Origin: Prorocentrum cordatum
Lineage: Eukaryota
Direction of reading: 5' to 3'
Assembly: GCA_963575745.1 (NCBI GenBank)
Contig: CAUYUJ010000170.1
Span: 558,001-622,000, forward strand
Length of the DNA stretch: 64,000 nucleotides
Part shown: one piece after another, positions 5,531-54,314 of the stretch
How positions within the stretch are numbered: the first letter of the stretch is position 1
How the letters are laid out: each line of letters begins with the position of its first letter
The notes under the pieces: generated by a model
The model's database searches: none
What the model was told of the DNA's origin: nothing
Seen by the model: only the letters and a program-made list of their open reading frames with translations
Position numbers and translations under genes: made by a program

Positions 5531-5589
5531 TTCGCATGCATTGGTGGTCCAATGCCCAACCCCGGTAAAGCAAACGTAGCATTTGGGCA

Positions 5590-14150: not shown

Positions 14151-14456
14151 TCACACGCGCGTGTCTGCCGCGATGCAGCCGACGTGGCACCGAGGCACCC
14201 CCAAGTTCCAGCAGGCGCCGCGAGTAGCGCGCCAGAGAGCGGGCGTACGGAGCAACGCCATGCGCTCCTGCTTGGGTTGTTGCGGGGAGAACGGCATGGG
14301 GAAATCCCCCTCGTCGTCTCTCCTGAAAAATGTCCAGAGGAGGAGGAGGAGGAGGAGGAGGAGGAGGAGGAGGAGGAGGAGGAGGAGGAGGAGGAGGAGG
14401 AGGAGGAGGAGGAGGAGGGGGAGGGAGGAGGAGGAGGAGGAGGAGGAGGAATCGCT

Positions 14457-14488
<32 letters not shown>

Positions 14489-14775
14489 TGCCGCGTCTGT
14501 CGTCTACGCAGGCTCGCTCTCACGCCCATATACTCAAAGACAGAGTTTCCCAGCGAAGCGGGACAATAGTATGTCATGCACACATGGGGATCTCCGCGTC
14601 GGGTCTTTTTCCCCCTCGTTCTGCCAGTTCCCCTCGCCCGTTCTGGGGCGGCGGGATCTGTACAGATCCACTGCCCGAGGCCTGGCCCATCCTGGGTCCA
14701 GGAACTGTATATGTATATATGTATGTATATCTATATGTATGTATGCATGCATGCATGCATGCATGTCTGTCTGCC

Positions 14776-14810
<35 letters not shown>

Positions 14811-14854
14811 ATGGATGGATGGATGGATGGATGGATGGATGGATGGATGGATGG

Positions 14855-14932
14855 TGCGTGCATGTCTTTCCTTATCCCGTCACGAGTCCAGGCCGTCGAT
14901 GTTAGATCGCTTCAGTGGGTTTTTGGGCTCAA
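14855..14932 (+). repeat. Split direct repeat A1
   Basis: 78 bp, 4 mismatches to A2 (19,696-19,773) by manual alignment. Confidence 0.93.
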
Positions 14933-14955
14933 GAATCTGCACCAAGGCAGTGCGT

Positions 14956-15774
14956 ATGGATTACTGGCTCCCTGCCGCCCAGTCCATTTGGCAGGGAGCG
15001 TTCGCCTATCTCCTGGGCAGCAACCTGCAGAGGTGCCCGCCAGTCCACGTCCCTTCGTGCCCCGCCATACCGAGCTGTGTGTGCCCGCCTTGTCCTGGCT
15101 GTCCGACGTGTCCCGGGGGCTCCCTCGCTCCCGCCACGCCCTCGGCGAACGGCGGGGGCAGCAGCGAACCACGACAGCCCTCCTCCGTCTGGTCTGTGGT
15201 GCCGGTGAACGAGGCTCTCCTGCTGGTCCTGGCGCTGACCTACGGCGCTCTGTCGTGGAACCGTGTCGTGCTGATGTGCTGGCGCCGCAGGGCTGGCCGT
15301 GCAGAACGTGAGCCCAGTGGGAGCAGCACCTCATGGGATGCTCCAGGGAACGTCGGTGCACTACGATGGAAAGCAGATGTGGCACCAGCGTCTGATCCAG
15401 GGCGACGGGGGTGGACTCGACTGGAGAGAGTCATTCAGTGGATGGTGTTCCTCTGTGCGGTGGTCAATGACATCTATGAGGACAGCTACTCACGCCAGGG
15501 GAGAGACATCGCTGCGGTGAGGTTCACATCAGATCGAGCTGCTCTCCTTCGAGGCGTCGGTGCCGTCAACTCGTACGGGTTCGGAAGGAACCGCACGGTG
15601 GCGCAGATGCAGCAGATCGACCCGACTGCGCTGGACTACGGCACCGCCGCTCTGGCCGCCGACCACCTGCGCCTGCGGCTGCCTGTGCCTGGCGGGCCGT
15701 TCGCCGTCCCGCTGACCTTCGGTCCCGCAGGAAGCGTTGGGCCTGGCGCGGGCGCTGGGCTAGCTAGCGGCTAG
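14956..15774 (+). CDS. Retrotransposon ORF1: Cys/Pro-rich region, hydrophobic helix, then putative gag-position sequence
   Basis: First ATG after A1 (MDYWLPAAQ...). Contains CPPVHVPSCPAIPSCVCPPCPGCPTCP and ALLLVLALTYGALSW. Gag role inferred from position only, and it may be two fused or frameshifted ORFs. Second copy at 49,315-50,133. Confidence 0.5.
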   Translation: MDYWLPAAQSIWQGAFAYLLGSNLQRCPPVHVPSCPAIPSCVCPPCPGCPTCPGGSLAPATPSANGGGSSEPRQPSSVWSVVPVNEALLLVLALTYGALSWNRVVLMCWRRRAGRAEREPSGSSTSWDAPGNVGALRWKADVAPASDPGRRGWTRLERVIQWMVFLCAVVNDIYEDSYSRQGRDIAAVRFTSDRAALLRGVGAVNSYGFGRNRTVAQMQQIDPTALDYGTAALAADHLRLRLPVPGGPFAVPLTFGPAGSVGPGAGAGLASG

Positions 15775-15994
15775 CCGCCGCAGGCGCCGGGGCCCCCACG
15801 GCCGTGGTGATCCCGCCTGCCGGCTCGCACCTCCGCGGGGCCGCCAGCTTGATGCCGCTGGCTGATGGGACGTGGGTGGCCGTCCGCTCGATCTCCGAGC
15901 CCGCGCAGATCTACGCGGGGAGGGAGGCCACTTCCGACGCCAGCGGCGGTGGCCCGCCGCCTGCTGGTGAGTTGTACTCGTTGGGCGATCGTGC

Positions 15995-17693
15995 TGGACG
16001 ACAGCGTGATCTATTTCCACTGCCTGGGCCCTGTCAACAGCATCGGGGGACTTCAGAGGCGTAGGGCATCGCTTGTTCACGGTCGGTGGCGCGTCGGGTT
16101 CTCCGCAAGGGCCACGCCAACTCGATGGAGGGCGAGATCGTTCGGACCCTCAATGAGCTGTACCTTGGCCAGCCCTGGCACCCCGTCAGCCATCCTCAGT
16201 CCATCACTGCGGGCCAGCGGCAGGCCCTGGACAACGTTCGAGACACAGTCCGGCGGTTCGGCTCGCCCCCGGAGGGATTGACTGGCTCAGGAGCCCTTGA
16301 GGAGCTCCGAGTTCTCAGCGACTGCGCTGGCGAGAGCGCCACAGTCGCTCCGCTCGACTTTGATCATATCAATAGTCTCTCGCTTCCAGACGAGGGTTTC
16401 AAGCCCGTGCCGCTTGACGCGCTGGGAGGGGATGCTGGCCGAAAGATAGTCGAGCGGCTTCATGGTATGATGTTGTCCCAGTCTGAGGGTCGTGCAGCTC
16501 TCCCTCGCGAACCGCTTCGTGGACCGCCGACCTGTGCCGCTGGTGTCCGAGGGTGTGATTCATGCCGAGTACGTGGACAATGCGATCAGCCTCTCTACGG
16601 ACCTGGACACGGCGGTCGCCGCGGCGTCGGCCGTGGACCCGAACGTTCGTGCAGCGGGTCTCCCTACCCACGGAGTCGAGAGCAGCTTTGGCGCCGTGGC
16701 ACTAGGCTGGCAGTTCGACGAGAAGTTCCCGATCATCGGCCTGAACCCAGCGCCCCGCTGGAAATTGCGTTTGGCCTTCCTGGAGCTGTCTTGACGGGGA
16801 TATGCCTCGGGCAAGACGATCTCGCGCGTGGTGCCCCACTTCACCTCGCGGGGTCTGGTTCGCCGAGAGCTTTTGGCCGCTCTCAACTCGCTGTGCGCTT
16901 TTTCTGCCCAGTATGGAGGCCGCGCAGCGCGGCTGTGGCCCTCTTGCCTCCGCGAGCTTCGCTGGTGCGCCAGCCTCGTCATGTTCTGTTTCCGGGGCGC
17001 TGGCGCCCCGCTCGACAGCGCGCTCACGACGGTTGATTCATCGTGGTGGGGAGTTGGAGTCACTCAGAAAAGTCGTCTGCCCCAGTCGCTCGTGAGCTCT
17101 CCAAGTACAATGAGATATGGAGATTCAGTAGTCATCAGGAGTCCGAGATGTCGCATCGATCCCACGCCTTCAAGTCGGCGACGTCCGCCGACCCCTTCAC
17201 CCCAGAGTCGGTCTTCATCATCGCCTGCTCCGGGAACCCAAAGGCCCCGATCAAGGAGCCCCTGGAGGTGCTCGTAGAAGAGCCCGTCAAGGAGCCCGTG
17301 ACGGAGGGGGTGCACATGGAGGAAGAGATGGTCAATGACGTCGAGGAGGAGGAGTTCCCCGAAATTTCATACGACGTTTGGGCGAAAGGCTGGGTCCCCG
17401 TGGTGTCTCATCGCTGGATCCGTTCAGAGCATCAGGTTGTCTTGGAGGCCCGCGGTATGGTCGTGGCCATCCGTCATGTCACATTCCTTCGACGTGTCTC
17501 ATCATTCGACCGATGCCATCTCTGCTTGGGCGACTGTTTGGGAGCCATCCTGGCCGCCACCAAGGGGCGTTCGTCGCGGCGGGAGACGGGCCGCGTGTGC
17601 CGGCAGCTGGCGCCCCTTTCGCTGGCCAGCGGCGCTGCATTCTTCTAGCGCTGGGTCCCCTCGGAGAGGAACTCGGCCGACCGCGCCTCCAGG
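15995..17693 (+). pseudogene. Decayed reverse transcriptase / RNase H (pol)
   Basis: RT motif EYVDN at 16,567-16,581, later LGW and GKTISRVVPHFT. RNase H motifs TVDSSWWGVG, LEARG, LGDCLGAILAATKGRSS and RWVPSERNSADRASR (17,649-17,693). Stops at 16,792 and 17,646 plus frameshifts. Upstream RT motifs are not found. Second copy at ~50,354-52,052. Confidence 0.85.
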
Positions 17694-18036
17694 AACCTGC
17701 CGGGCGTGGGCTACGCGGCCGCGGCGGCCGACTCCTGCTGCCTAGGCGCTGCCGCTGGCGGCCCCAGCCCTGCGAGCGGGCGCGGAGGGCCTGCTGGCGA
17801 GAGCTGGGCCGACATCGGGCCCCCGCCCGGCCTCGAAGGGGGGGCTCGCTGGCCTTCTGTCTGGGTGAGCTCCCGCGACGGCAGCCGCGAGCCCGGCGGG
17901 GCCGTGGGAGCTGGCAGCCGAGTCTCCGAACGGCCCGGGGCGAGCGAGCCGCCGCCAGGCGAGGCTGCCCCATGGCGGGAGCTGGCGGGATCAGCTCCAG
18001 CGGTCGTTCCTCGAGTCGGTCCTCGAGCTCAGGGCC

Positions 18037-18744
18037 GTGAAGGACAGGGCCGTCTGGAGCTACCTGGTCCGATGCCGAGCTTTCCTGATCTGGTCGACGA
18101 AGGCCTACCTGTCGGTGGCGAGTGTCACGGACCTGGAGATCGACTGGATGGTGGCGTACGACTCCCTGGCCGCTGCCCGAACGGTCGTCTTGACGTCCGT
18201 CCTCGGCCTGGGGTCGTCGGCGACGCTGTCGCTGCGCGTCCGGCCAGTCGAGCAGCTGGTCAGGGCTGGTCCACAACATCTGGGCATGTACTCGATCCTG
18301 CAGTTTCCCGCGGAGCTCAGGGTGATGTCGAAGGCCCTGGTCTACGACGCCAGTCTCCAGGTGGACAGCCCAGAGTTCAGCGGGGCCGACCAGCTGCTGG
18401 ATTGCCTCGTGGGGAGACGTGCGATCGACGCGCTCCTGTCCTACCTGGACATGAGGCTCTGGGTGCGGGCGCTCCTGCAGGCGGGCGCCGCCCTCGGACT
18501 GGGCGCCCTCGCCCCCCCAATGCCGCATCCGCTGCGCCGCGGGGGGGCCAGCCCCGAGTATCCGACAAACGCCAGGACATTCGGCGACATCAAGAAGCGC
18601 TGGCAGTGGGATGCCGTCAGGGGCCTCATGCAGTACGCGAGGGATGGTCAAGTTCAAGTGGTGCTGTGGCGTCTGCATCCCGTCCTACAGTCTCGGGCCC
18701 ACGTTTGCGTCGCGACTATTGGAGGCACCCTGTGCAGAATCTGA
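18037..18744 (+). pseudogene. Tyrosine recombinase (degenerate)
   Basis: HPLRRGGAS (H at 18,526) followed by KKRWQW and MQY (Y at 18,634), matching the HxLRxGGA...GRW...Y signature. The first catalytic Arg box is not recognisable and the true start is uncertain. Second copy at 52,396-53,103. Confidence 0.8.
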
Positions 18745-18773
18745 GCTCCTGGGCCCACCTGACCGACTCGAAG

Positions 18774-19529
18774 GTGTACTTGGAGGTCTTCAGTGGCTCC
18801 GGGAACTGGTCCCAGGCGCTGCGGGGGAGCATGACTTCTCGCCTGGCGCCGCGGGTCTTCGAGCTGGACGTGGACCATGAGCCCACCCTCGGTGACCTCA
18901 GCCGGCGGCGAGCCCAGCGCGTGGTGCGCGGGTGGCTCCGTGGTGGCCTGCTGCAGGGCGTCTGGCTCGGGATGCCCTGCAGCTCGTGGTCGCGGGCACG
19001 GAATCGTCCCAACGGGCCACCAGCCCTGCGGGACGCCGCCCACGTGTTTGGCCTGCCCAACCTGTCGTCGGCTGACCCCCTCAAAGTCGAGACGGGTAAC
19101 GAGTTATCGCAGTTCTCTTTCAGCTTGTTTTTGGAGTGTGCCAGGCGCGGAGTCCCCGCAGCAATCGAGAACCCTTCCACCTCGTGGGTCTGGCAGACCC
19201 GCTGGGCCCAGCATGCGGCACGCCAGCCAGGGGTTAAGACTGTGGAGTTTGATTTCTGCGCCTTCGGCACTGCTTGGAGGAAGAGAACCCGTGTGATACC
19301 TGCTCATTTCAATTTTGACTCGATCAGCTCTTGCAAGTGTACAGGGCGTGGCCTTTGTTCTTTCACGCACCGTCCGCACCGAGCTCTGGAAGGCAAGACG
19401 CCTTCCGGAGTTTTCTGGACCAAAATAGCCGAGCCATACCCGCCCAGCTTGTCCAGTGCCCTTGCCAGAGCCTATCGTGAAGCTAGATTGTCATCTACGC
19501 ACCAAGCCTTGGTGCGATTGGCGGCCTAG
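18774..19529 (+). CDS. C5 cytosine DNA methyltransferase-like domain (retrotransposon-borne)
   Basis: Motif I LEVFSGSG (18,780-18,803), II FELD, IV GMPCSSWS (C at 18,978), VI IENP (E at 19,167), VIII FGTAWRKRT. No stops over ~250 codons. Start codon undefined. Confidence 0.85.
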   Translation: MYLEVFSGSGNWSQALRGSMTSRLAPRVFELDVDHEPTLGDLSRRRAQRVVRGWLRGGLLQGVWLGMPCSSWSRARNRPNGPPALRDAAHVFGLPNLSSADPLKVETGNELSQFSFSLFLECARRGVPAAIENPSTSWVWQTRWAQHAARQPGVKTVEFDFCAFGTAWRKRTRVIPAHFNFDSISSCKCTGRGLCSFTHRPHRALEGKTPSGVFWTKIAEPYPPSLSSALARAYREARLSSTHQALVRLAA

Positions 19530-19558
19530 GGCCAGTTAGATCTTCGGAGAGATGTTTC

Positions 19559-19955
19559 GAGGTCGCTGTTGTTTGTCCTGGCCTCCCGCGTCTCCTCTCG
19601 ACGCGGATGGATGGTGCACTCTGGTTGGGCAACGTTTGAGAACAGACACTGTCGAGATGCTGGCCTGGAAATAGAGCGGGGTCTAGGATATCCTATGCGT
19701 TCATGTCTTTCCTTATCCCGTCACGTGTCCAGGCCGTCGATGTTAGATCGTTTCCGTGGGTTTTTGGGCTCAACCCTGCCCACCCACCCTTGAGCCTTGT
19801 AAAGAGATGCTCCGTCACTCGCAGGAGGTCGCTGTTGGTTGTCCTGGCCTCCCGCGTTTCCTCTCGACGCGGATGGATGGTGCACTCTGGCTGGACAACG
19901 TCTGCGAACAGACACTGTCGAGATGCTGGCCTGGAAATAGTGCGGGGTCTAGGAT
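19559..19955 (+). repeat. Split direct repeats B1-A2-(spacer)-B2
   Basis: B1 and B2 are each 131 bp with 7 mismatches by manual alignment. A2 lies between them. Confidence 0.93.
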
Positions 19956-20297
19956 GTATGTATGCATTTATGTATGTATGTATGTATGTATGTATGCATG
20001 CATGCATGCATGTATGTATGTATGTATGTATGTATGTATGTATGTATGTATGTATACATACATATGCCTCCCTGGCCAAATAAGGAGGGCATATACGCCG
20101 CTCCCGGGCCCAGGATGGGCCAGGCTCGGGGCAGTGGATATGAAAAGACCCCCGCCGCCGTGCGTTCGCGTCCTCCCAGTCTTCCTGTGGTTTGCCCACG
20201 CGGTCCGGGAGGCTCCGAGAGGGCCCCAGGCTCCCCGGGAGGCCGCCGAGACTCGTCCCCGAGGCCAGAGGCGCCCAGAACCGGCCCAGGGAGCACA

Positions 20298-20318
20298 GCC
20301 GTAGCCCTCTTGCTCACG
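20298..20318 (+). other. Relic dinoflagellate spliced leader
   Basis: gccgtagccctctt-gctcacg vs DCCGTAGCCATTTTGGCTCAAG (18/22, one gap), 83 nt upstream of the ATG. Second copy at 54,657-54,677. Confidence 0.7.
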
Positions 20319-20401
20319 TCCAGCGCTGGCTCGGGCAGCCCTCCCGCCGGATTCGAGCTCGTCGGACCTGCCACGGGCTGCCGCCGTCGGGCACTGGCAG
20401 C

Positions 20402-22801
20402 ATGAGCGAGGAGGAGCCGAACAACGTCGCTGGCGAGGAGGAGTCGAACGACGTCAGCCGCGAGGAGGGACCCGCGGAGGTGCCGGTGGTGATGGCGACG
20501 CTAGTGCAGCCGTCGATCCCTCCAGGGGCGTCCCCGTCCGTGACCGGCCAGGGCGGGTATTGGATGGAGTTCATTGACATCGACATGTGCAGGCAGGGGG
20601 ACGCGGAGATCGTCCACGATTGGATGCGCAGCACGACGATCGAGGACCTGAAGAGGACGGTCGAGGAGAAGGGCTACTCTGCCATAACCGTGAGCAACGG
20701 CCACCCCTCCTTCGGGCACGCGGCCCTGAAGAAGTTCGACTTCCAGCTCACGCACATGCACTGCAAGCCCATCTCTTCCTGCTGCAAGCACCCGTGCAAG
20801 ATCTACATCTACACCTCCAGCTCTGCGCCCGGCTCCGGCGGGCGTGCCCCTGCCCTGGAGGCCGGGGAGCCGAGCATCGACGGAGATTATTTCTCCTTCA
20901 AGACGGGCGGGGACCCCGCCGCCGTCGTGGACCGGTTCCGGGCGCAAAGGAGTGGCAACAGGGTCACCTACTACCGGAACCAGCGGCATCCGGGCCATGG
21001 CGCGCAGCCAGGGTCCATCGCCTGCGAGAGCTACACCATATCAGGAGACGTGCTCACGGGCCCCGTGTCGGCCACCGTCCAGGCCAACGGGGACATCGTG
21101 TACAGCCACGGGTACACCTCCAGGAGGCTACGGGTGCTGCCACACGGGGACGCAGTGTACAGTTCCGAAGGCTCGGGGCCGTCCGTGACGGGCAGGGGCG
21201 GACGATGGATGGCGTACACCGACATCGACATGTGCGGGCAGGGAGACACCGAGATCATCCCTGATTGGCGGTCGCACACTACGCTCGAAGACTTGAAGAG
21301 GACCGTGGAGTTGAAGGGTTACTCGGCCATCACGGTCAGCAATGGACACCCCAGTTTCGGGCATGCAGCCCTCAAGAAGTTCCCCTACCAGCTCACGACA
21401 GAGCATTGCAAGCCGATATCGACTTGCTGCAGGCACCCGTGCAAGATCTACATCTATGATTCTACGGGCGCGTCGCCATTGAAAGACGATGTGTGCATCG
21501 GGAGTGCAGCGGGTGCTTGTGACCCTGGCACGGACTACGTCTCGTTCAAGACAGGCGGAGACCCCGGCAGCATCGTGGACCGCTTCCGGGCAGTCAGGGC
21601 TGGCGACACTTTGACATTCTACCGGAACCAGCCCAGCCCAGGGCCCTGCGCGCAGCCGGGTACCATTGCATGTGAGAGCTACACCATACGGGGCGATCGC
21701 CTCAGTGGGGCGGTGTCGGCCACCGTTCAGCCTAATGGAGACATTACGTGGAGCCATGGGTACACCTCCAGGCCCAGGGCGAGCACCGAGGCTGCCTTGC
21801 GGCATGGGGCGACAGCGTCGGTGACAGGCAGGAGTGGGTATTGGATGGAATTCCAAGACATCGATATGTGCAGACAAGGGGACGTGTCTATCATTCAAAA
21901 TTGGCGCTCTGTCACCTCGATCGAGGCGATGAAGAGGACCGTGGAGGAGAACGGATATTCCGCCATCACTGTAAGCAACGGCAACCCTAGCTTTTTGCAT
22001 GCGGCCATCAAAAAATTTGATTTCCAGCTGAAGCCAGAGTACTGCAAGCCCATCTCTTCCTGCTGCAGGCACCCGTGCAAGATTTACATCTACTTTCCTA
22101 CGCCAGGTAGAGGGGTCAGTGCCCCAGTCGAGCGAGACGAGATACACATCGACGGAGATTATTTCTCCTTCAAGACGGGCGGGGACCCCGCCGCCGTCGT
22201 GGACCGGTTCCGGGCGAAGAGGAGTGGCAACAGGGTCACCTACTACCGGAACCAGCGGCATCCGGGCCATGGCGCGCAGCCAGGGTCCATCGCCTGCGAG
22301 AGCTACACCATATCAGGAGACGTGCTCACGGGCCCCGTGTCGGCCACCGTCCAGGCCAACGGGGACATCGTGTACAGCCACGGGTACACCTCCAGGCGCA
22401 TCCACGGAGGCGGGGGCTTGGCAGCAGACGACATCGCCGTGGTGGTCGGGACGCCCGTGCCAGTTCCGATGCAGGACAACGTCATCCTGGAGCCGCTCCC
22501 TCCAGGCATCATCTCGGCCGAGGACATGGCTGGCTGCTGGACCTGCGCCTGCATCCCCCTCGGCTGCGCCTGCTTCGAGAAGAGAGCCGTGGGGCATGAC
22601 AGGCTCGTGCACAAGGGTCTCGCTTTCTGCTGCTTCGTGCTGCCCTGCCACTTCGTGGAGCCCAGGGTTCGCGTCCCTGGCACCAACGGCTTCTACAAGG
22701 AGGACGAGGGCCCGTCCTCCCGCAATATCGACACATACCACTCGTCGGGGTGTGTCTGTAACGGCCTCGCCTGCTCCATGAAGCTCTGCCCGCTCTGCTG
22801 A
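20402..22801 (+). CDS. Intronless 799-aa protein with three tandem ~210-aa two-domain repeats and a Cys-rich C-terminus; function unknown (copy 1)
   Basis: Long open frame with GC-rich third positions. Repeats W..DIDMCxQGD..GYSAITVSNGxPSF.HAA.KKF..CKPIS.CC.HPCKIYIY and DY.SFKTGGDP..VDRFRA..ACESYTI..SHGYTSR show synonymous divergence. SL relic upstream. Confidence 0.92.
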   Translation: MSEEEPNNVAGEEESNDVSREEGPAEVPVVMATLVQPSIPPGASPSVTGQGGYWMEFIDIDMCRQGDAEIVHDWMRSTTIEDLKRTVEEKGYSAITVSNGHPSFGHAALKKFDFQLTHMHCKPISSCCKHPCKIYIYTSSSAPGSGGRAPALEAGEPSIDGDYFSFKTGGDPAAVVDRFRAQRSGNRVTYYRNQRHPGHGAQPGSIACESYTISGDVLTGPVSATVQANGDIVYSHGYTSRRLRVLPHGDAVYSSEGSGPSVTGRGGRWMAYTDIDMCGQGDTEIIPDWRSHTTLEDLKRTVELKGYSAITVSNGHPSFGHAALKKFPYQLTTEHCKPISTCCRHPCKIYIYDSTGASPLKDDVCIGSAAGACDPGTDYVSFKTGGDPGSIVDRFRAVRAGDTLTFYRNQPSPGPCAQPGTIACESYTIRGDRLSGAVSATVQPNGDITWSHGYTSRPRASTEAALRHGATASVTGRSGYWMEFQDIDMCRQGDVSIIQNWRSVTSIEAMKRTVEENGYSAITVSNGNPSFLHAAIKKFDFQLKPEYCKPISSCCRHPCKIYIYFPTPGRGVSAPVERDEIHIDGDYFSFKTGGDPAAVVDRFRAKRSGNRVTYYRNQRHPGHGAQPGSIACESYTISGDVLTGPVSATVQANGDIVYSHGYTSRRIHGGGGLAADDIAVVVGTPVPVPMQDNVILEPLPPGIISAEDMAGCWTCACIPLGCACFEKRAVGHDRLVHKGLAFCCFVLPCHFVEPRVRVPGTNGFYKEDEGPSSRNIDTYHSSGCVCNGLACSMKLCPLC

Positions 22802-24888: not shown

Positions 24889-25156
24889 TAGTAGTATAGG
24901 TAGCATAAGTATTAGTAGTATGTAGTAGTAGTAAAGCCGTAGTAGGTAGTAGTATCGTAGTAGTAATCGTAGTAGTAGTAGTAGGTAGTAGCCGTAGTCA
25001 GTAGTATTCGTATAGTAGTAGTAGAGTAGATCGTAAGCTAGTCGTTAGTCCGTAGGTCTAGTAGTAGTAGTAGTAGTAGTAGTAAATAGTAATAGAAAGA
25101 GTAATAGTAATATAATATGTAATAAGTATTGTAATAGTAGTAGTAATATAGGAGTA

Positions 25157-25188
<32 letters not shown>

Positions 25189-25269
25189 CCGTAGTAATTA
25201 GTATAGTAGTAGCTACAGTAGTAGTTAAAAATTTACGATTATCTGTAATAAGATTACTAAACATGTTAT

Positions 25270-25328
<59 letters not shown>

Positions 25329-26075
25329 ATTGTAGTAGTAGTAGTTGTTGTTGTAGAAGTAGTAGCAGTAGTAGTAGTTGTTGTTGTTGTAGTAGTAGTA
25401 CTAGTACTTGTAGTAGCCGTACTAGTAGTGGTTGTTCTAGTGGTAGTGGTAGTAATATTATTATTATTAATAGTAGTAGTAGTAGCAGTAGTAGTAGTAG
25501 TAGTAGTAGTAAGAGTAAGAGTAGTAGTAGTCGTAGTAGTAGTGGTAGTGTACAGTGGATATACGAATAGGTAGTAGTATTAGTAGTACGATTAAAAATA
25601 CGAGTCGTATAAGCAGAAGTACTACAGGTAGTACAAGTACTCGTACGAGTAGTAGTACAGAGTAGTAGCACTATGGAAGTAGAAGTGCTAGTAATACTTG
25701 TACGACTGCTAGACTAGTAGCAATGCCTTTGGTACTACAATTTGCAAAACAAGTAGTAGCAGCAGGAGTAGTAGTAGTAGTAGTAGTAGTAGTCGTACCA
25801 ATGGCACTAGTAACGCTAGTCAGGATGGGAGTGTCCGCAGCCCGCATGGACGTCCGCGTGCGATGTGCGCCGCGTCCCATTCCTGCCACGTATTTCGCAC
25901 CGTCGGCGACAAGGCAGGCCATGCTGAGAGGAAAAAAAGAAGACTTGATATTGATTTTTTATAGTCAGGGTGGGCGGGCCCAGATTGACTGCCGCGCGCG
26001 ATGCGCGCCGCGTCCCATTCCTGCCACGTTTTTCGCATCGCCGACGACAAGAAAGACGATGTTGAGAAGAAAACC
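24690..26075 (+). repeat. (GTA)n microsatellite flanked by a dispersed ~100-140 bp repeat
   Basis: (GTA)n at 24,850-25,795. Motif gatgtgcgccgcgtcccattcctgccac..tttcgcatcgtcgacgacaag at ~24,710, 25,862, 26,000 and degenerate at ~27,480-27,720. Second copy at ~58,600-60,310. Confidence 0.85.
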
Positions 26076-27730: not shown

Positions 27731-27830
27731 NNNNNNNNNNNNNNNNNNNNNNNNNNNNNNNNNNNNNNNNNNNNNNNNNNNNNNNNNNNNNNNNNNNNNN
27801 NNNNNNNNNNNNNNNNNNNNNNNNNNNNNN
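27731..27830. other. Assembly gap (100 N)
   Basis: Directly visible. Confidence 1.
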
Positions 27831-28876
27831 TCGGGCTGCTGAGGTGATGAAGAGCGAAGATGATGAAGAGCGAGGAATCGAAGGAGAGGCTCGGCTTCAT
27901 GTCCAAGTGGAGGGAAACGCTCCATCCAAGACGCCCACGGCGAATCGACGCCGGCCCCTGCCACTCGGGAGCCTCTTGGACCGTCTTGGGGCCCTTTTGG
28001 GCCGTCTGGCGGGCATCTCGGGAACCTATTCAGCCGTTTGGGGGCGATTCTGCGATGTCTTAGAGCTGTGTATGGTGCAAATTATGTTGTGCAGTATCTG
28101 CGGCGTAAGCCATGTGGTTAACTATATGGGTTAAGCGAAGGCCCCGTACGCAAACGCATACACACCCCATGGCTGCAGGCGCTGCTTGGGGAACTGGGCC
28201 TCTTCGAGGCATTGTTGGAGCCCTCTCGAGGTGCTCCTGGGCCATCCCGGAGCCCCCTCGGGGCCATCTCAGGGGCGAGGGGGCGTGCCGATGGCGGGCC
28301 CGGCGCCTGGCACGCCGTGCGCCCCTGCGGCACGCCAAGAGGAGGCGGCGGATGAGGCCAGGCAGAAGCGCGGGCGACGCGCCCCAAAAACGGGGCAGTC
28401 TTCGCCGGCGTTGGCGCGGAAGCTGCCCGCGCCAGGTCTCGCGTGAGCGCCCTCGTCACCACTGCGGCGTGCCGCGCCGGCGGCCCGCGCAGGCCGCCGC
28501 GCAAGGTCCCCCACGCCATCTCGCGTGAGGCCCGTTTCGTTTCGTCGCTCACGCGGCGCTGCCTGCCTACCAATCATATGTCGAGGGGAGCTGGGCCCCC
28601 GGCCCGGGGGGCGGCCCGCTTCTTCAAGACTCCCCCCCCCCCCAGTCCCGTTTTCAGCCCCAGGGGGGGGGGGGGGCGACCCGCTTCGCGGCCGGGCCCG
28701 CTGCTTGGGAGAGGCCGCAGAGCGGCCCCCAGAGCGATCAGACCGCCGGTCCGGCGGCCCAGGACGGCCCCGAGCCACCCCGAAGACGGCCTCGCGGGGG
28801 CCTCAGACGGCCCCAGAAGCTCTCCAAACGGACCAAGGGGCTCCCAAGACGGCCCCAGGAGGCGCCAAGAGGACCC

Positions 28877-28926
28877 GCCGTGGCCATTCTGGCCCCAGCC
28901 GTTTTGGCCCCCGGATTTTGATCAAC
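28877..28926 (+). other. Tandem relic spliced leaders (two clear, one weak)
   Basis: gccgtggccattctggccccag (18/22 to DinoSL), then ccgttttggcccccg (11/15 to CCATTTTGGCTCAAG), then gattttgatcaac. Confidence 0.8.
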
Positions 28927-49213: not shown

Positions 49214-52200
49214 TGCGTGCATGTCTTTCCTTATCCCGTCACGAGTCCAGGCCGTCGATGTTAGATCGCTTCAGTGGGTTTTTGGGCTCAAGAATCTGCA
49301 CCAAGGCAGTGCGTATGGATTACTGGCTCCCTGCCGCCCAGTCCATTTGGCAGGGAGCGTTCGCCTATCTCCTGGGCAGCAACCTGCAGAGGTGCCCGCC
49401 AGTCCACGTCCCTTCGTGCCCCGCCATACCGAGCTGTGTGTGCCCGCCTTGTCCTGGCTGTCCGACGTGTCCCGGGGGCTCCCTCGCTCCCGCCACGCCC
49501 TCGGCGAACGGCGGGGGCAGCAGCGAACCACGACAGCCCTCCTCCGTCTGGTCTGTGGTGCCGGTGAACGAGGCTCTCCTGCTGGTCCTGGCGCTGACCT
49601 ACGGCGCTCTGTCGTGGAACCGTGTCGTGCTGATGTGCTGGCGCCGCAGGGCTGGCCGTGCAGAACGTGAGCCCAGTGGGAGCAGCACCTCATGGGATGC
49701 TCCAGGGAACGTCGGTGCACTACGATGGAAAGCAGATGTGGCACCAGCGTCTGATCCAGGGCGACGGGGGTGGACTCGACTGGAGAGAGTCATTCAGTGG
49801 ATGGTGTTCCTCTGTGCGGTGGTCAATGACATCTATGAGGACAGCTACTCACGCCAGGGGAGAGACATCGCTGCGGTGAGGTTCACATCAGATCGAGCTG
49901 CTCTCCTTCGAGGCGTCGGTGCCGTCAACTCGTACGGGTTCGGAAGGAACCGCACGGTGGCGCAGATGCAGCAGATCGACCCGACTGCGCTGGACTACGG
50001 CACCGCCGCTCTGGCCGCCGACCACCTGCGCCTGCGGCTGCCTGTGCCTGGCGGGCCGTTCGCCGTCCCGCTGACCTTCGGTCCCGCAGGAAGCGTTGGG
50101 CCTGGCGCGGGCGCTGGGCTAGCTAGCGGCTAGCCGCCGCAGGCGCCGGGGCCCCCACGGCCGTGGTGATCCCGCCTGCCGGCTCGCACCTCCGCGGGGC
50201 CGCCAGCTTGATGCCGCTGGCTGATGGGACGTGGGTGGCCGTCCGCTCGATCTCCGAGCCCGCGCAGATCTACGCGGGGAGGGAGGCCACTTCCGACGCC
50301 AGCGGCGGTGGCCCGCCGCCTGCTGGTGAGTTGTACTCGTTGGGCGATCGTGCTGGACGACAGCGTGATCTATTTCCACTGCCTGGGCCCTGTCAACAGC
50401 ATCGGGGGACTTCAGAGGCGTAGGGCATCGCTTGTTCACGGTCGGTGGCGCGTCGGGTTCTCCGCAAGGGCCACGCCAACTCGATGGAGGGCGAGATCGT
50501 TCGGACCCTCAATGAGCTGTACCTTGGCCAGCCCTGGCACCCCGTCAGCCATCCTCAGTCCATCACTGCGGGCCAGCGGCAGGCCCTGGACAACGTTCGA
50601 GACACAGTCCGGCGGTTCGGCTCGCCCCCGGAGGGATTGACTGGCTCAGGAGCCCTTGAGGAGCTCCGAGTTCTCAGCGACTGCGCTGGCGAGAGCGCCA
50701 CAGTCGCTCCGCTCGACTTTGATCATATCAATAGTCTCTCGCTTCCAGACGAGGGTTTCAAGCCCGTGCCGCTTGACGCGCTGGGAGGGGATGCTGGCCG
50801 AAAGATAGTCGAGCGGCTTCATGGTATGATGTTGTCCCAGTCTGAGGGTCGTGCAGCTCTCCCTCGCGAACCGCTTCGTGGACCGCCGACCTGTGCCGCT
50901 GGTGTCCGAGGGTGTGATTCATGCCGAGTACGTGGACAATGCGATCAGCCTCTCTACGGACCTGGACACGGCGGTCGCCGCGGCGTCGGCCGTGGACCCG
51001 AACGTTCGTGCAGCGGGTCTCCCTACCCACGGAGTCGAGAGCAGCTTTGGCGCCGTGGCACTAGGCTGGCAGTTCGACGAGAAGTTCCCGATCATCGGCC
51101 TGAACCCAGCGCCCCGCTGGAAATTGCGTTTGGCCTTCCTGGAGCTGTCTTGACGGGGATATGCCTCGGGCAAGACGATCTCGCGCGTGGTGCCCCACTT
51201 CACCTCGCGGGGTCTGGTTCGCCGAGAGCTTTTGGCCGCTCTCAACTCGCTGTGCGCTTTTTCTGCCCAGTATGGAGGCCGCGCAGCGCGGCTGTGGCCC
51301 TCTTGCCTCCGCGAGCTTCGCTGGTGCGCCAGCCTCGTCATGTTCTGTTTCCGGGGCGCTGGCGCCCCGCTCGACAGCGCGCTCACGACGGTTGATTCAT
51401 CGTGGTGGGGAGTTGGAGTCACTCAGAAAAGTCGTCTGCCCCAGTCGCTCGTGAGCTCTCCAAGTACAATGAGATATGGAGATTCAGTAGTCATCAGGAG
51501 TCCGAGATGTCGCATCGATCCCACGCCTTCAAGTCGGCGACGTCCGCCGACCCCTTCACCCCAGAGTCGGTCTTCATCATCGCCTGCTCCGGGAACCCAA
51601 AGGCCCCGATCAAGGAGCCCCTGGAGGTGCTCGTAGAAGAGCCCGTCAAGGAGCCCGTGACGGAGGGGGTGCACATGGAGGAAGAGATGGTCAATGACGT
51701 CGAGGAGGAGGAGTTCCCCGAAATTTCATACGACGTTTGGGCGAAAGGCTGGGTCCCCGTGGTGTCTCATCGCTGGATCCGTTCAGAGCATCAGGTTGTC
51801 TTGGAGGCCCGCGGTATGGTCGTGGCCATCCGTCATGTCACATTCCTTCGACGTGTCTCATCATTCGACCGATGCCATCTCTGCTTGGGCGACTGTTTGG
51901 GAGCCATCCTGGCCGCCACCAAGGGGCGTTCGTCGCGGCGGGAGACGGGCCGCGTGTGCCGGCAGCTGGCGCCCCTTTCGCTGGCCAGCGGCGCTGCATT
52001 CTTCTAGCGCTGGGTCCCCTCGGAGAGGAACTCGGCCGACCGCGCCTCCAGGAACCTGCCGGGCGTGGGCTACGCGGCCGCGGCGGCCGACTCCTGCTGC
52101 CTAGGCGCTGCCGCTGGCGGCCCCAGCCCTGCGAGCGGGCGCGGAGGGCCTGCTGGCGAGAGCTGGGCCGACATCGGGCCCCCGCCCGGCCTCGAAGGGG

Positions 52201-54314
52201 GGGCTCGCTGGCCTTCTGTCTGGGTGAGCTCCCGCGACGGCAGCCGCGAGCCCGGCGGGGCCGTGGGAGCTGGCAGCCGAGTCTCCGAACGGCCCGGGGC
52301 GAGCGAGCCGCCGCCAGGCGAGGCTGCCCCATGGCGGGAGCTGGCGGGATCAGCTCCAGCGGTCGTTCCTCGAGTCGGTCCTCGAGCTCAGGGCCGTGAA
52401 GGACAGGGCCGTCTGGAGCTACCTGGTCCGATGCCGAGCTTTCCTGATCTGGTCGACGAAGGCCTACCTGTCGGTGGCGAGTGTCACGGACCTGGAGATC
52501 GACTGGATGGTGGCGTACGACTCCCTGGCCGCTGCCCGAACGGTCGTCTTGACGTCCGTCCTCGGCCTGGGGTCGTCGGCGACGCTGTCGCTGCGCGTCC
52601 GGCCAGTCGAGCAGCTGGTCAGGGCTGGTCCACAACATCTGGGCATGTACTCGATCCTGCAGTTTCCCGCGGAGCTCAGGGTGATGTCGAAGGCCCTGGT
52701 CTACGACGCCAGTCTCCAGGTGGACAGCCCAGAGTTCAGCGGGGCCGACCAGCTGCTGGATTGCCTCGTGGGGAGACGTGCGATCGACGCGCTCCTGTCC
52801 TACCTGGACATGAGGCTCTGGGTGCGGGCGCTCCTGCAGGCGGGCGCCGCCCTCGGACTGGGCGCCCTCGCCCCCCCAATGCCGCATCCGCTGCGCCGCG
52901 GGGGGGCCAGCCCCGAGTATCCGACAAACGCCAGGACATTCGGCGACATCAAGAAGCGCTGGCAGTGGGATGCCGTCAGGGGCCTCATGCAGTACGCGAG
53001 GGATGGTCAAGTTCAAGTGGTGCTGTGGCGTCTGCATCCCGTCCTACAGTCTCGGGCCCACGTTTGCGTCGCGACTATTGGAGGCACCCTGTGCAGAATC
53101 TGAGCTCCTGGGCCCACCTGACCGACTCGAAGGTGTACTTGGAGGTCTTCAGTGGCTCCGGGAACTGGTCCCAGGCGCTGCGGGGGAGCATGACTTCTCG
53201 CCTGGCGCCGCGGGTCTTCGAGCTGGACGTGGACCATGAGCCCACCCTCGGTGACCTCAGCCGGCGGCGAGCCCAGCGCGTGGTGCGCGGGTGGCTCCGT
53301 GGTGGCCTGCTGCAGGGCGTCTGGCTCGGGATGCCCTGCAGCTCGTGGTCGCGGGCACGGAATCGTCCCAACGGGCCACCAGCCCTGCGGGACGCCGCCC
53401 ACGTGTTTGGCCTGCCCAACCTGTCGTCGGCTGACCCCCTCAAAGTCGAGACGGGTAACGAGTTATCGCAGTTCTCTTTCAGCTTGTTTTTGGAGTGTGC
53501 CAGGCGCGGAGTCCCCGCAGCAATCGAGAACCCTTCCACCTCGTGGGTCTGGCAGACCCGCTGGGCCCAGCATGCGGCACGCCAGCCAGGGGTTAAGACT
53601 GTGGAGTTTGATTTCTGCGCCTTCGGCACTGCTTGGAGGAAGAGAACCCGTGTGATACCTGCTCATTTCAATTTTGACTCGATCAGCTCTTGCAAGTGTA
53701 CAGGGCGTGGCCTTTGTTCTTTCACGCACCGTCCGCACCGAGCTCTGGAAGGCAAGACGCCTTCCGGAGTTTTCTGGACCAAAATAGCCGAGCCATACCC
53801 GCCCAGCTTGTCCAGTGCCCTTGCCAGAGCCTATCGTGAAGCTAGATTGTCATCTACGCACCAAGCCTTGGTGCGATTGGCGGCCTAGGGCCAGTTAGAT
53901 CTTCGGAGAGATGTTTCGAGGTCGCTGTTGTTTGTCCTGGCCTCCCGCGTCTCCTCTCGACGCGGATGGATGGTGCACTCTGGTTGGGCAACGTTTGAGA
54001 ACAGACACTGTCGAGATGCTGGCCTGGAAATAGAGCGGGGTCTAGGATATCCTATGCGTTCATGTCTTTCCTTATCCCGTCACGTGTCCAGGCCGTCGAT
54101 GTTAGATCGTTTCCGTGGGTTTTTGGGCTCAACCCTGCCCACCCACCCTTGAGCCTTGTAAAGAGATGCTCCGTCACTCGCAGGAGGTCGCTGTTGGTTG
54201 TCCTGGCCTCCCGCGTTTCCTCTCGACGCGGATGGATGGTGCACTCTGGCTGGACAACGTCTGCGAACAGACACTGTCGAGATGCTGGCCTGGAAATAGT
54301 GCGGGGTCTAGGAT
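49214..54314 (+). mobile_element. Tyrosine-recombinase retrotransposon with C5 DNA methyltransferase, copy 2
   Basis: Identical ORF translations and termini to copy 1 (A1 49,214-49,291; B1 53,918-54,048; A2 54,055-54,132; B2 54,184-54,314). Confidence 0.9.
53133..53888 (+). CDS. C5 cytosine DNA methyltransferase-like domain, copy 2
   Basis: Same translation as 18,774-19,529. Confidence 0.85.
   Translation: MYLEVFSGSGNWSQALRGSMTSRLAPRVFELDVDHEPTLGDLSRRRAQRVVRGWLRGGLLQGVWLGMPCSSWSRARNRPNGPPALRDAAHVFGLPNLSSADPLKVETGNELSQFSFSLFLECARRGVPAAIENPSTSWVWQTRWAQHAARQPGVKTVEFDFCAFGTAWRKRTRVIPAHFNFDSISSCKCTGRGLCSFTHRPHRALEGKTPSGVFWTKIAEPYPPSLSSALARAYREARLSSTHQALVRLAA

What the first reader, a model, noticed from the sequence alone, without database searches (positions are those of the whole stretch)
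14855..19955. Split-direct-repeat tyrosine-recombinase retrotransposon carrying its own C5 cytosine methyltransferase
Seen: A1...B1-A2-B2 termini and, in order, ORF1, RT (YVDN), RNase H, YR (HPLRRGGAS...Y) and a final domain with C5-MTase motifs I, IV, VI and VIII (FSGSG, GMPC, ENP, RKRT). Known: split direct repeats define PAT/Ngaro-type DIRS-order elements. The MTase of classical DIRS1 elements is Dam-like (N6A) and lies in pol. C5-DNMT-bearing retrotransposons have been reported in Symbiodiniaceae. Inference: this is a structurally complete member with the DNMT downstream of YR, possibly methylating its own circular cDNA or the host genome. Whether this family is already described cannot be judged here.
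Basis: partly seen in the sequence, partly recalled or inferred. Interest (0 to 1): 0.85.

Follow-up and report, generated by a model that had tools for sequence, protein, structure and literature searches.

The report
Defective retrotransposon with cryptic cytosine methyltransferase
This is a decayed copy of a dinoflagellate jumping gene whose intact relatives carry a very divergent cytosine-methylase-like domain and encode their recombinase inside the reading frame of another gene.

Summary
Window 14855-19955 has A1...B1-A2-B2 split direct repeats, each pair 95% identical. Between them lie remnants of ORF1, RT (YVDN), RNase H and a tyrosine recombinase (YR), then an intact 3' domain.

That domain matches no Pfam family. 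Its AlphaFold model (pLDDT 88) matches C5 cytosine methyltransferases first: Z 11.5-9.7 for the top 12 of 48,161 chains. Profiles align its FSGSG and PC motifs to DNMT2 and E. coli Dcm.

"Structurally complete" is wrong. The copy has lost the RT motif A/B region, part of ORF1 and part of YR including catalytic Arg I. It also carries frameshifts and four in-frame stops. Its twin at 49214-54314 comes from a 34-kb duplication, not a second insertion.

Eighty related metagenome loci show the intact 6.0-6.3 kb design: ORF1, then one Pol ORF of about 1,400 aa reading RT-RH-linker-methyltransferase. The whole YR gene is nested in the +1 frame of the linker. The Pol frame has 1 stop in 7,280 codons there, against 22-27 per 400 codons in control frames.

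Closest named relatives are from Prorocentrum, Polarella and Symbiodinium. The published SymbioDIRS-Dnmt3 elements are related in kind, but their DNMT is detectable by Pfam. I rate this a new variant of a known kind.

The parts
14855..14932 (+). A1, 5' split direct repeat
   Evidence: 78 nt, 95% identical to A2. It lies inside a (GGAT)n/(ATGY)n microsatellite.
15241..15920 (+). ORF1 (gag-position protein) remnant, with a frameshift near 15400 and about 105 aa missing at 15920/15940
   Evidence: tblastn with P0178 and P0174. The intact ORF1 of L003 (389 aa) has no Pfam match.
15999..16502 (+). N-terminal part of Pol (start mod 3 = 0), ending at the deletion junction that removes the RT motif A/B region
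   Evidence: L003 Pol aa 3-164 align here and aa 345-538 resume at 16513. P0174 aa 339-507 have no counterpart.
16513..17097 (+). RT motif C to thumb and the start of RNase H, shifted to frame 1. YVDN at 16570-16581; in-frame TGA at 16792
17067..17693 (+). RNase H remnant, back in frame 0, with an in-frame TAG at 17646 and the ...NSADRASR end motif at 17652-17693
17649..18731 (+). Pol-frame linker, still free of stops, overlapping the YR gene
   Evidence: Frame 0 has no stop between 17646 and 19527. The homologous linker is open in 28 of 30 in-frame loci.
17692..18744 (+). Tyrosine recombinase remnant in the +1 frame. Stops at 17743 and 17866, about 62 aa deleted, Arg I lost; HPLRRGGAS at 18526-18552, Tyr codon within 18598-18636
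18732..19529 (+). C5-methyltransferase-like C-terminal domain of Pol, uninterrupted, with all family-invariant residues. Stop codon at 19527-19529
19559..19689 (+). B1 repeat
   Evidence: 131 nt, 95% identical to B2
19696..19773 (+). A2 repeat
19825..19955 (+). B2, 3' terminal repeat
   Evidence: It ends ...TAGGAT and runs directly into an (ATGT)n microsatellite.
49214..54314 (+). Second, identical copy of the same insertion, carried by the 34.4-kb tandem duplication
   Evidence: 14801-20000 aligns at offset 34359 with no difference. Block 1-23410 matches 34406-57769 at 99.69%.

Best explanation
Window 14855-19955 is a dead, internally deleted copy of a DIRS-order (tyrosine-recombinase) retrotransposon family of dinoflagellates. 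A recent 34-kb segmental duplication copied it once more, to 49214-54314.

Intact members are 6.0-6.3 kb. They have A1...B1-A2-B2 split direct repeats and three genes:
- ORF1, in the gag position.
- One Pol ORF of about 1,400 aa, reading RT, RNase H, a poorly conserved Gly/Ser/Arg-rich linker of about 400 aa, and a C-terminal domain with the C5 cytosine methyltransferase fold.
- A Cre-like tyrosine recombinase gene lying wholly inside the linker-coding stretch, in the +1 frame.

Shown here: the repeats, the domain order, the fold assignments, the conserved catalytic-type residues, the nested dual coding, and the defects of the window copy.

Inferred:
- RNA is reverse-transcribed. The B-A junction is rebuilt from the terminal redundancy.
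- YR recombines that junction with a short matching target, without a target-site duplication.
- YR is translated from its own AUG, perhaps on a separate or trans-spliced mRNA.
- The methyltransferase, tethered to RT-RH, methylates cytosines of the nascent cDNA, or alternatively of the RNA. The new copy would then resemble the heavily methylated host genome.

The window copy cannot do any of this by itself.
For: Repeats in the window. The same A...B-A-B layout occurs in 8 independent loci (L003, L008, L010, L014, L025, L061, L066, L071). Their repeats are mostly 100% identical, and the B end and A start share 3-4 nt (CAT, CATA or ATA).

Reference element L003:
- ORF1 500-1669
- Pol 1856-6001 (1,381 aa)
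- YR 4011-5228, in the +1 frame

Frames:
- 30 of 41 loci holding all three parts read f / f+1 / f.
- 28 of those 30 have no stop in the Pol frame between RNase H and the methyltransferase.
- In 24 clean loci the Pol frame has 1 stop in 7,280 codons across YR. The equivalent -1 frame has 22-27 stops per 400 codons in the RT-RH and methyltransferase regions.
- 14 loci have a Pol ORF of 1,357-1,419 aa. YR ORFs are 383-448 aa, start at the RNase H end, and stop within -87 to +63 nt of the methyltransferase start.

Methyltransferase domain:
- AF2 pLDDT 88.4, pTM 0.85.
- All listed Foldseek matches are C5-MTases, best E 3.6e-5.
- VIA Z 12.3-10.7 with 186-222 residues aligned.
- In the wide search the top 12 of 48,161 chains are all C5-MTases.
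- The profile hits DNMT2 at E 0.0018. hhalign against E. coli Dcm gives probability 73.8%, E 2.9e-5. Both align motif I and the PC cysteine.
- Of 208 full-span domains, the PC Cys is kept in 198, the ENP Glu in 205 and motif I Gly in 207.
- Mean pairwise identity is 43% for the methyltransferase, 37% for RT-RH, 31% for YR and 17% for the linker.

YR:
- R214, K268, R336, H337, W360 and Y369 are conserved.
- PF00589 matches 6 of 24 members, best E 2.9e-5.
- The AF2 model (pLDDT 83) hits Cre at E 5e-7, followed by XerH, XerA and lambda Int.

Defects of the window copy.
Against: No activity data exist for this domain.
- PF00145 does not reach its threshold in any of 50 members. Five match weakly, best E 0.019.
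- The margin over generic Rossmann folds is modest: Z 11.5 against 9.7 for a short-chain reductase.
- The second Arg of canonical motif VIII is not conserved (R in 106 of 208). What the family conserves is [RK]-K-x-T.
- The best sequence match in the PDB is DNMT2, an RNA methyltransferase, so the substrate could be RNA.
- CpG observed/expected does not single out the element. It is 0.93 in the window copy against 0.75-0.99 in the flanks, and 0.59-0.70 in the five metagenome copies that have flanks, whose flanks vary from 0.42 to 1.07.
- Translation of the long Pol ORF and separate initiation of YR are inferred from DNA only.
- RT/YR phylogeny against DIRS1, PAT, Ngaro and VIPER references could not be run, so the superfamily is not fixed.
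Confidence: 0.8

Rival explanations
1. It is simply a member of the published SymbioDIRS-Dnmt3 family (de Mendoza et al. 2018). Nothing would then be new beyond one more host.
For: That family has A-coding-B-A-B repeats, a DNMT in the Pol ORF together with RT, YR in a separate ORF, and a divergent RT that Pfam aligns poorly (PMC5890265, passages read). All of these also describe the present family. Relatives exist in Symbiodinium kawagutii (P0181, P0183).
Against: SymbioDIRS DNMTs were found with Pfam-based searches and group with eukaryotic Dnmt3. Here PF00145 is absent at E<=0.1 from 12 homologues including long Pol proteins. It reaches only E 0.019 in 5 of 50 domains. None of the 52 database hits carries a precomputed PF00145. 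Structural Z-scores do not favour DNMT3 over DNMT1 or M.HhaI. The paper also reports Symbiodinium DIRS elements 'lacking DNMTs', which could be this family. I could not read its main supplementary figure file, so the published architectures were not seen.
Confidence: 0.12
2. The C-terminal domain is an RNA (tRNA or template RNA) m5C methyltransferase of the Dnmt2 kind, or acts on RNA:DNA hybrids, rather than a DNA methyltransferase.
For: The best profile hit among solved structures is DNMT2 (E 0.0018). The region between motif VIII and the AEPYP motif is only about 46 aa. The domain is tethered to RT-RH, which handles RNA.
Against: DNA enzymes (DNMT3A/B, DNMT1, M.HhaI, M.MpeI) score as high as or higher than Dnmt2 in the structure searches. 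Nothing tested here discriminates between substrates.
Confidence: 0.2
3. The domain keeps the fold but is not catalytic. It would serve as a DNA-binding or targeting module, or the window copy has been taken over as a host gene.
For: In the window it is the only part left undamaged: the 626-codon frame 17649-19529 is open. Prorocentrum gene models fuse it to unrelated sequence (P0175).
Against: Catalytic-type residues are kept in 198-207 of 208 family members, which argues for catalysis in the family. In the window there is no ATG upstream of motif I in that frame. The fused gene models skip the YR end through predicted introns and look like annotation artefacts. GC-rich DNA keeps long accidental open frames: only 13 stops occur in frame 0 over 5.1 kb.
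Confidence: 0.06
4. The stop-free Pol frame across YR is a by-product of GC-rich codon usage or of assembly and gene calling, not dual coding.
For: High GC3 lowers stop frequency in some alternative frames. The long proteins came from automatic gene callers that prefer long ORFs.
Against: The same -1 frame carries 22-27 stops per 400 codons inside the RT-RH and methyltransferase regions of the same 24 loci, against 1 in 7,280 codons across YR. The counts were made on DNA, not on gene calls. The loci differ by up to about 75% at protein level, so they are independent.
Confidence: 0.03

Closest known systems
SymbioDIRS-Dnmt3 (DNMT-bearing DIRS-like retrotransposons of Symbiodinium; de Mendoza et al. 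2018, PMC5890265)
   Same: Dinoflagellate host. A-coding-B-A-B repeats. A cytosine-methyltransferase-type domain in the Pol ORF together with RT. YR in its own ORF. An RT that fits Pfam poorly. Proposed methylation of the cDNA.
   Different: The published DNMT is of the Dnmt3 class and detectable by Pfam. The present domain misses PF00145 and carries an invariant Cys/Cys/Cys/His set. Here YR is nested in the +1 frame inside Pol, between RNase H and the methyltransferase. The passages I read mention no such nesting.
Ngaro and PAT-like tyrosine-recombinase retrotransposons
   Same: Split direct repeats A1...B1-A2-B2, the order gag / RT-RH / YR, and no inverted terminal repeats. Dinoflagellate repeat annotation already uses the label 'Ngaro' (PMC11572971, passages).
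   Different: Ngaro is described as lacking a methyltransferase domain and usually lacking ORF overlaps (PMC3266345, passages). This family has both. Placement by RT/YR phylogeny was not tested.
DIRS1-like elements
   Same: Pol reads RT-RH-MT. Long overlaps between the Pol and YR ORFs are known in about half of the 28 annotated elements (PMC3266345).
   Different: DIRS1 has inverted terminal repeats and internal complementary regions, a Dam-like N6-adenine methyltransferase, and a YR catalytic domain in the non-overlapping part of its ORF. Here the repeats are direct, the methyltransferase has the C5 fold, and the whole YR gene is overlapped.
C5 cytosine methyltransferases (DNMT1, DNMT3, Dnmt2, M.HhaI, Dcm)
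   Same: The fold (Z 11-12) and, at the expected spacing, motif I FxGxG, motif IV PC, an ENP triplet at the motif VI position, and a basic motif at the motif VIII position.
   Different: About 250 aa with a very short region in the place of the target-recognition domain. Conserved C202/C229/C235/H242. Motif VIII reads [RK]-K-x-T rather than QxRxR. Below the Pfam threshold.

Membership tests
DIRS-order retrotransposon with split direct repeats (PAT/Ngaro type) | A1...B1-A2-B2 split direct repeats | tested here: met
   Window: A 78 nt and B 131 nt, 95% each. Eight related loci have the same layout.
DIRS-order retrotransposon with split direct repeats (PAT/Ngaro type) | Reverse transcriptase | tested here: met
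   RVT_1 matches 4 of 5 intact Pol N-terminal halves. L008 scores 32.0 bits against a cut-off of 29.6; the other three are below it. The family keeps a YxDD/N motif. In the window copy only motif C onward survives.
DIRS-order retrotransposon with split direct repeats (PAT/Ngaro type) | RNase H after RT | tested here: inconclusive
   Only sub-threshold Pfam matches to the hepadnaviral RNase H region (PF00336, best E 0.00097) and the conserved W-x-PSE-x-N-x-AD-x-x-SR motif. Reading that motif as RNase H is recalled. The domain was not folded.
DIRS-order retrotransposon with split direct repeats (PAT/Ngaro type) | Tyrosine recombinase with R-K-H-R-H/W-Y catalytic residues instead of a DDE integrase | tested here: met
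   Family: conserved R214, K268, R336, H337, W360, Y369; PF00589 in 6 of 24; the model matches Cre at E 5e-7. Window copy: Arg I lost, about 62 aa deleted and two stops, so not functional.
DIRS-order retrotransposon with split direct repeats (PAT/Ngaro type) | RT/YR phylogenetic placement within Ngaro, PAT, DIRS1 or VIPER | not testable with these tools
C5 cytosine methyltransferase (PF00145) | Match to the Pfam DNA_methylase model above its threshold | tested here: not met
   None for the window domain at E<=10. Five of 50 relatives match weakly, best E 0.019.
C5 cytosine methyltransferase (PF00145) | C5-MTase fold | tested here: met
   VIA Z 12.3-10.7 over residues 38-291. The top 12 of 48,161 representative chains are all C5-MTases. 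All listed Foldseek matches are C5-MTases.
C5 cytosine methyltransferase (PF00145) | Motif I (FxGxG) and motif IV (PC, catalytic Cys) | tested here: met
   Aligned to the same motifs of DNMT2 and E. coli Dcm. G48 is kept in 207 and C109 in 198 of 208 domains.
C5 cytosine methyltransferase (PF00145) | Motif VI (ENV Glu) and motif VIII (QxRxR) | tested here: inconclusive
   ENP is conserved (E in 205 of 208) at the expected spacing. At the motif VIII position the family conserves [RK]-K-x-T, and the second Arg is present in only 106 of 208. Residue-level equivalence was not printed by the structure tools. The motif definitions are recalled.
C5 cytosine methyltransferase (PF00145) | SAM-dependent transfer of methyl to cytosine C5 | not testable with these tools
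   Needs an enzyme assay.
SymbioDIRS-Dnmt3 | DNMT of the Dnmt3 class, detectable by Pfam | tested here: not met
   No PF00145 match. No structural preference for DNMT3. No DNMT tree was built.
SymbioDIRS-Dnmt3 | A-coding-B-A-B repeats, DNMT in the Pol ORF, YR in a separate ORF | tested here: met
   Here, in addition, the YR ORF is nested inside Pol.
DIRS1-like | Inverted terminal repeats with internal complementary regions, and a Dam-like methyltransferase | tested here: not met
   The only inverted pairs are the flanking microsatellites. N6-adenine models match 2 of 50 (PF02086, E 0.24) and 1 of 50 (PF01555, E 0.28).

The most novel reading that the evidence does not exclude
A large clade of tyrosine-recombinase retrotransposons, found in at least three dinoflagellate genera, has gone unrecognised as methyltransferase-bearing because its C5-MTase domain is invisible to Pfam. 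The clade has 5,086 protein clusters at 50% identity.

The domain is at least as conserved as RT-RH. It carries a conserved Cys3-His set that may bind zinc. It can only be made by translating through a roughly 400-codon linker on which the complete recombinase gene is overprinted in the +1 frame. The element would thus use one stretch of DNA for two essential products, and would methylate its own cDNA or RNA to pass as host DNA in a hypermethylated genome.

The 'DIRS without DNMT' elements of Symbiodiniaceae may in fact be these elements. They could be a large extra source of cytosine methyltransferase activity in dinoflagellates.
Probability: 0.35. Interest if true: 0.78.

Novelty: new variant of a known kind. 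Interest (0 to 1): 0.6.

Why it matters
Dinoflagellate genomes are unusually heavily methylated, and retrotransposon-borne DNMTs have been proposed to shape that state (PMC5890265). A second, very abundant methyltransferase lineage inside tyrosine-recombinase elements would change two counts: how many DNMT-like genes these genomes hold, and which elements are scored as lacking a DNMT.

The nested recombinase gene is a clean, testable case of overprinting in a eukaryotic mobile element. About 400 codons are read in two frames, with a control-frame contrast of roughly 400-fold in stop density. It raises a concrete question of how the inner gene is translated.

For the window itself the practical message is an annotation one. 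14855-19955 and 49214-54314 are one dead transposon relic, duplicated with its surroundings. They are not host genes.

Tried and rejected
- Pfam on eight ORF pieces of the window element gave nothing relevant at E<=1.
- phmmer of the domain against PDB sequences gave no hit.
- The YR profile against PDB sequences gave no meaningful hit, best E 0.58. The fold search was needed instead.
- No whole genome is held for this window, so copy number and intact copies in the host genome could not be examined.
- The look-up of sequencing runs listed one DNA holder with a 0.15 share of words and no RNA holder.
- The search of earlier findings by sequence returned nothing.
- The genome search could not reach the record behind L003.
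- CpG depletion was tried as a trace of self-methylation. There was no signal distinguishing elements from flanks.
- The protein atlas gave only unnamed clusters, one of them auto-named a cytosine-5 methyltransferase family. This is a lead only.
- Literature searches for a description of this family found only SymbioDIRS-Dnmt3 and the 2026 DAM preprint.
- The supplement search of PMC5890265 covered 3 of the 4 files listed. The main supplementary figure file was too large to read, and bioRxiv supplements are closed. A published drawing of this architecture could therefore have escaped me.
- A +1 frameshift fusion RT-RH-YR was considered and rejected as the general route. In several loci (L004, L011, L012) the YR-frame stop lies immediately before the YR ATG.

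Full report
**1. What is in the window**

The stretch is GC-rich (62-66%), eukaryote-like DNA.
- A1 14855-14932 and A2 19696-19773: 78 nt, 95% identical.
- B1 19559-19689 and B2 19825-19955: 131 nt, 95% identical.

The order is A1 ... B1-A2-B2. The only inverted pairs are the microsatellites that flank the element, so there are no DIRS1-type inverted terminal repeats. The element sits inside a (GGAT)n/(ATGY)n microsatellite.

The window also contains a tandem duplication of about 34.4 kb. Block 1-23410 matches 34406-57769 at 99.69%, with differences mainly in simple repeats. A run of 100 N lies at 27731-27830. The element recurs at 49214-54314 without a single difference. The window therefore holds one insertion event, copied with its surroundings. 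An assembly artefact could explain the duplication equally well.

**2. State of this copy**

The closest named relatives are predicted proteins of *Prorocentrum cordatum*, 75-92% identical over the last domain. More distant ones come from *Polarella glacialis* and *Symbiodinium kawagutii*. I laid these proteins, and an intact metagenomic relative (L003), on the window. The copy turns out to be badly damaged.

- **ORF1.** The remnant changes frame near 15400. About 105 residues of P0174 have no counterpart at 15920/15940.
- **RT.** Pol starts in the frame with start mod 3 = 0 (15999-16502). L003 Pol residues 165-344 (P0174 residues 339-507) are then missing. That interval holds the RT motif A/B region. 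Coding resumes in another frame at 16513.
- **Stops in Pol.** An in-frame TGA lies at 16792. The frame returns near 17070. The RNase H part carries an in-frame TAG at 17646.
- **YR.** The recombinase frame has stops at 17743 and 17866 and lacks about 62 residues. It reads LGLGSSAT where relatives have the Arg I motif YLRPGE.
- **Last domain.** Only this part (18732-19529) is undamaged. The frame 17649-19529 is open for 626 codons.

'Structurally complete' is not correct.

A *P. cordatum* protein (P0175) shares the same YR deletion and Arg I loss. This deleted form therefore exists in more than one genomic place.

**3. The last domain**

Sequence searches find no named family:
- Pfam finds nothing in it, nor in 12 homologues.
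- phmmer against PDB sequences finds nothing.

An exhaustive search of 1.84 billion cluster representatives finds 5,086 relatives at E<=0.001 and 220 at E<=1e-30. They are either about 250 aa long or have the domain at the C-terminus of proteins of 1,100-1,460 aa.

An alignment of 50 of them shows invariant or nearly invariant residues at FSGSG, (T/M)PC, ENP, (R/K)K-x-T and AEPYP. It also shows an invariant Cys202/Cys229/Cys235/His242 set.

The structure searches point to C5 cytosine methyltransferases:
- The AlphaFold model is confident: pLDDT 88.4, pTM 0.85.
- Foldseek against the PDB lists only C5 cytosine methyltransferases: MET1, DNMT1, DNMT2, DNMT3A/B/C, DIM2 and EhMeth. The best E is 3.6e-5, and 48 matches have E<=0.001.
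- VIA-align gives Z 12.3-10.7 with 186-222 aligned residues at rmsd 3.5-5.2 Å.
- The search that does not depend on Foldseek ranks twelve C5 methyltransferases first among 48,161 representative chains (Z 11.5-9.7). Generic Rossmann reductases follow at Z 9.7 and below, with fewer aligned residues.

At sequence level there are three weak signals:
- The family profile hits DNMT2 at E 0.0018.
- hhalign against E. coli Dcm gives probability 73.8% and E 2.9e-5. Both alignments pair motif I with motif I and the PC cysteine with the catalytic cysteine.
- PF00145 appears weakly in 5 of 50 members, best E 0.019.

I then collected 208 domains that span motif I to the AEPYP motif, 64 from loci and 144 from database proteins:

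| Residue | Kept in (of 208) |
|---|---|
| PC Cys | 198 |
| ENP Glu | 205 |
| Motif I Gly | 207 |
| The four Cys/His positions | 205-207 |
| Second Arg of 'RKRT' | 106 |

I conclude that this is a very divergent member of the C5 methyltransferase fold with catalytic-type residues under selection. It is not a member of the Pfam family as defined, and its activity and substrate are untested. The motif numbering is recalled from the literature on these enzymes.

**4. The intact family**

A pattern search of metagenome contigs with eight close domains found 156 encoding stretches among 314 matches. The best 80 became loci L001-L080.

Context of the domain:
- Of 51 loci with at least 1.3 kb upstream, 47 show a YR just upstream by tblastn. 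The other four show it by profile HMM.
- Of 36 loci with at least 3.6 kb upstream, 35 show RT-RH.

Eight loci show complete A...B-A-B repeats, mostly 100% identical, with element lengths of 6.0-6.3 kb. The end of B and the start of A share CAT, CATA or ATA, and the flanks are AT-rich or TA microsatellites. This fits recombination between a B-A circle junction and a short matching target. That mechanism is inferred from what is known of DIRS-order elements.

L003 serves as the reference:

| Feature | Position in L003 |
|---|---|
| A1 | 3-70 |
| ORF1 (389 aa, no Pfam match) | 500-1669 |
| Pol (1,381 aa) | 1856-6001 |
| YR (405 aa) | 4011-5228 |
| B1 | 6044-6136 |
| A2 | 6135-6202 |
| B2 | 6239-6331 |

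Support for the individual domains:
- RVT_1 matches four of five Pol N-terminal halves, one above threshold.
- YR has the conserved residues R214, K268, R336, H337, W360 and Y369.
- PF00589 matches 6 of 24 YR sequences.
- The YR model (pLDDT 83) matches Cre at E 5e-7, then XerH, XerA, lambda integrase and an integron integrase.

**5. The nested recombinase gene**

In 30 of 41 loci that hold all three parts, RT-RH and the methyltransferase domain are in one frame and YR lies between them in the +1 frame. The other 11 have frameshifts. In 28 of the 30, the Pol frame has no stop between the RNase H end and the methyltransferase start.

Could GC-rich codon usage alone explain this? I counted stops in the equivalent alternative frames of the singly coding parts of the same 24 clean loci:

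| Region and frame | Stops |
|---|---|
| RT-RH, frame one base behind the coding frame | 27 per 400 codons |
| Methyltransferase, same frame | 22 per 400 codons |
| YR, same frame (this is the Pol frame) | 1 in 7,280 codons |

ORF sizes and boundaries:
- Pol ORFs of 1,357-1,419 aa are found in 14 loci.
- YR ORFs are 383-448 aa.
- YR begins with ATG at the RNase H end and stops within -87 to +63 nt of the methyltransferase start.

Conservation fits a passive tether. Mean pairwise identity of the linker protein is 17%, against 31% for YR, 37% for RT-RH and 43% for the methyltransferase. The linker is rich in Gly, Ser and Arg. It looks like a tether whose only constraint is to stay open.

In several loci a YR-frame stop directly precedes the YR ATG. 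A frameshift fusion to RT-RH is therefore unlikely, and separate initiation is the simplest reading. How ribosomes reach that AUG is unknown. Spliced-leader trans-splicing is a guess.

Even the dead window copy still has the Pol frame open from 17649 to 19529.

**6. How it most likely works**

Shown: the anatomy described above.

Inferred:
- Pol is translated as RT-RH-linker-methyltransferase.
- The methyltransferase is thereby brought to the site of cDNA synthesis and methylates cytosines of the new cDNA. The new copy would then resemble the heavily CG-methylated host genome. This is the same idea proposed for SymbioDIRS-Dnmt3 (PMC5890265, passages).
- YR then inserts the circular or junction-bearing cDNA.

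An RNA substrate of the Dnmt2 kind is a serious alternative. CpG depletion gave no discriminating signal.

**7. Comparison with what is known**

- **de Mendoza et al. 2018** described SymbioLINE-Dnmt and SymbioDIRS-Dnmt3. The latter has A-coding-B-A-B repeats, a Dnmt3-class DNMT in Pol, and YR in a separate ORF. The paper also reports DIRS elements without DNMT in the same genomes (passages read).
- **The 2026 preprint** on adenine methyltransferases lists SymbioDIRS-DNMT3 and SymbioLINE-DNMT as the known DNMTs associated with dinoflagellate transposable elements (passages).
- **The DIRS1 overview** states that long Pol/YR overlaps occur in DIRS1-like elements. It also states that Ngaro and VIPER lack the methyltransferase domain and usually lack overlaps (passages).
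- **My searches** found no description of a DIRS-order family with a C5-type domain that Pfam cannot detect, or with YR wholly nested in Pol.

One limit applies. I could not read the main supplementary figures of the 2018 paper, and I had no Repbase. I therefore rate the finding as a new variant of a known kind, with a real chance (about 12%) that it is the published family under another detection threshold.

**8. Verdict**

The window locus itself is an ordinary dead transposon. The interest lies in the family it led to.

Noticed in passing
window 1-23410 and 34406-57769: Tandem duplication of about 34.4 kb at 99.69% identity. Differences are mainly in microsatellite lengths. A 100-N scaffold gap lies at 27731-27830 between the copies. 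It could be a true recent segmental duplication or an assembly or haplotig artefact.
   Followed up: partly
window 20144-22801 (and 54503-57160): Open frame of 885 codons on the + strand just downstream of the element. It has three tandem repeats of about 215 aa (units about 640 nt apart, 72-99% identical at DNA level). This is probably a host gene and was not characterised.
   Followed up: no
window 14300-14850 and 19956-20070: The element is embedded in compound microsatellites: (GAG)n/(GGA)n-type runs giving poly-E, poly-R and poly-G frames, then (ATGT)n, (ATGC)n, (CTGT)n and (GGAT)n. B2 ends in GGAT, the same unit as the 5' flank repeat. The first 6 nt seen before A2 (ATCCTA) are absent before A1.
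   Followed up: partly
window 25087-25640, 58620-60040, 31388-32100: Large arrays of short tandem repeats with periods 9/12 and 8/12. The array near 58.6-60.0 kb is longer than its counterpart near 25 kb.
   Followed up: no
window 28000-30000: A 2-kb stretch at 73.5% G+C, which gives weak low-complexity tblastn matches on both strands to the Arg/Gly-rich linker of P0016.
   Followed up: no
L080:12089-12655, L039, L059, L071: Some long metagenome contigs carry a second, more divergent methyltransferase-domain match or truncated copies next to microsatellites. This suggests clustered or nested insertions of this family.
   Followed up: no
P0174, P0175, P0176 (Prorocentrum cordatum gene models): Public gene models join ORF1, Pol, part of YR and the methyltransferase domain through predicted introns that skip the YR catalytic end. 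One model is named 'RNA-directed RNA polymerase'. P0175 fuses the domain to about 480 aa of unrelated repeats. These look like annotation artefacts of transposon relics.
   Followed up: partly
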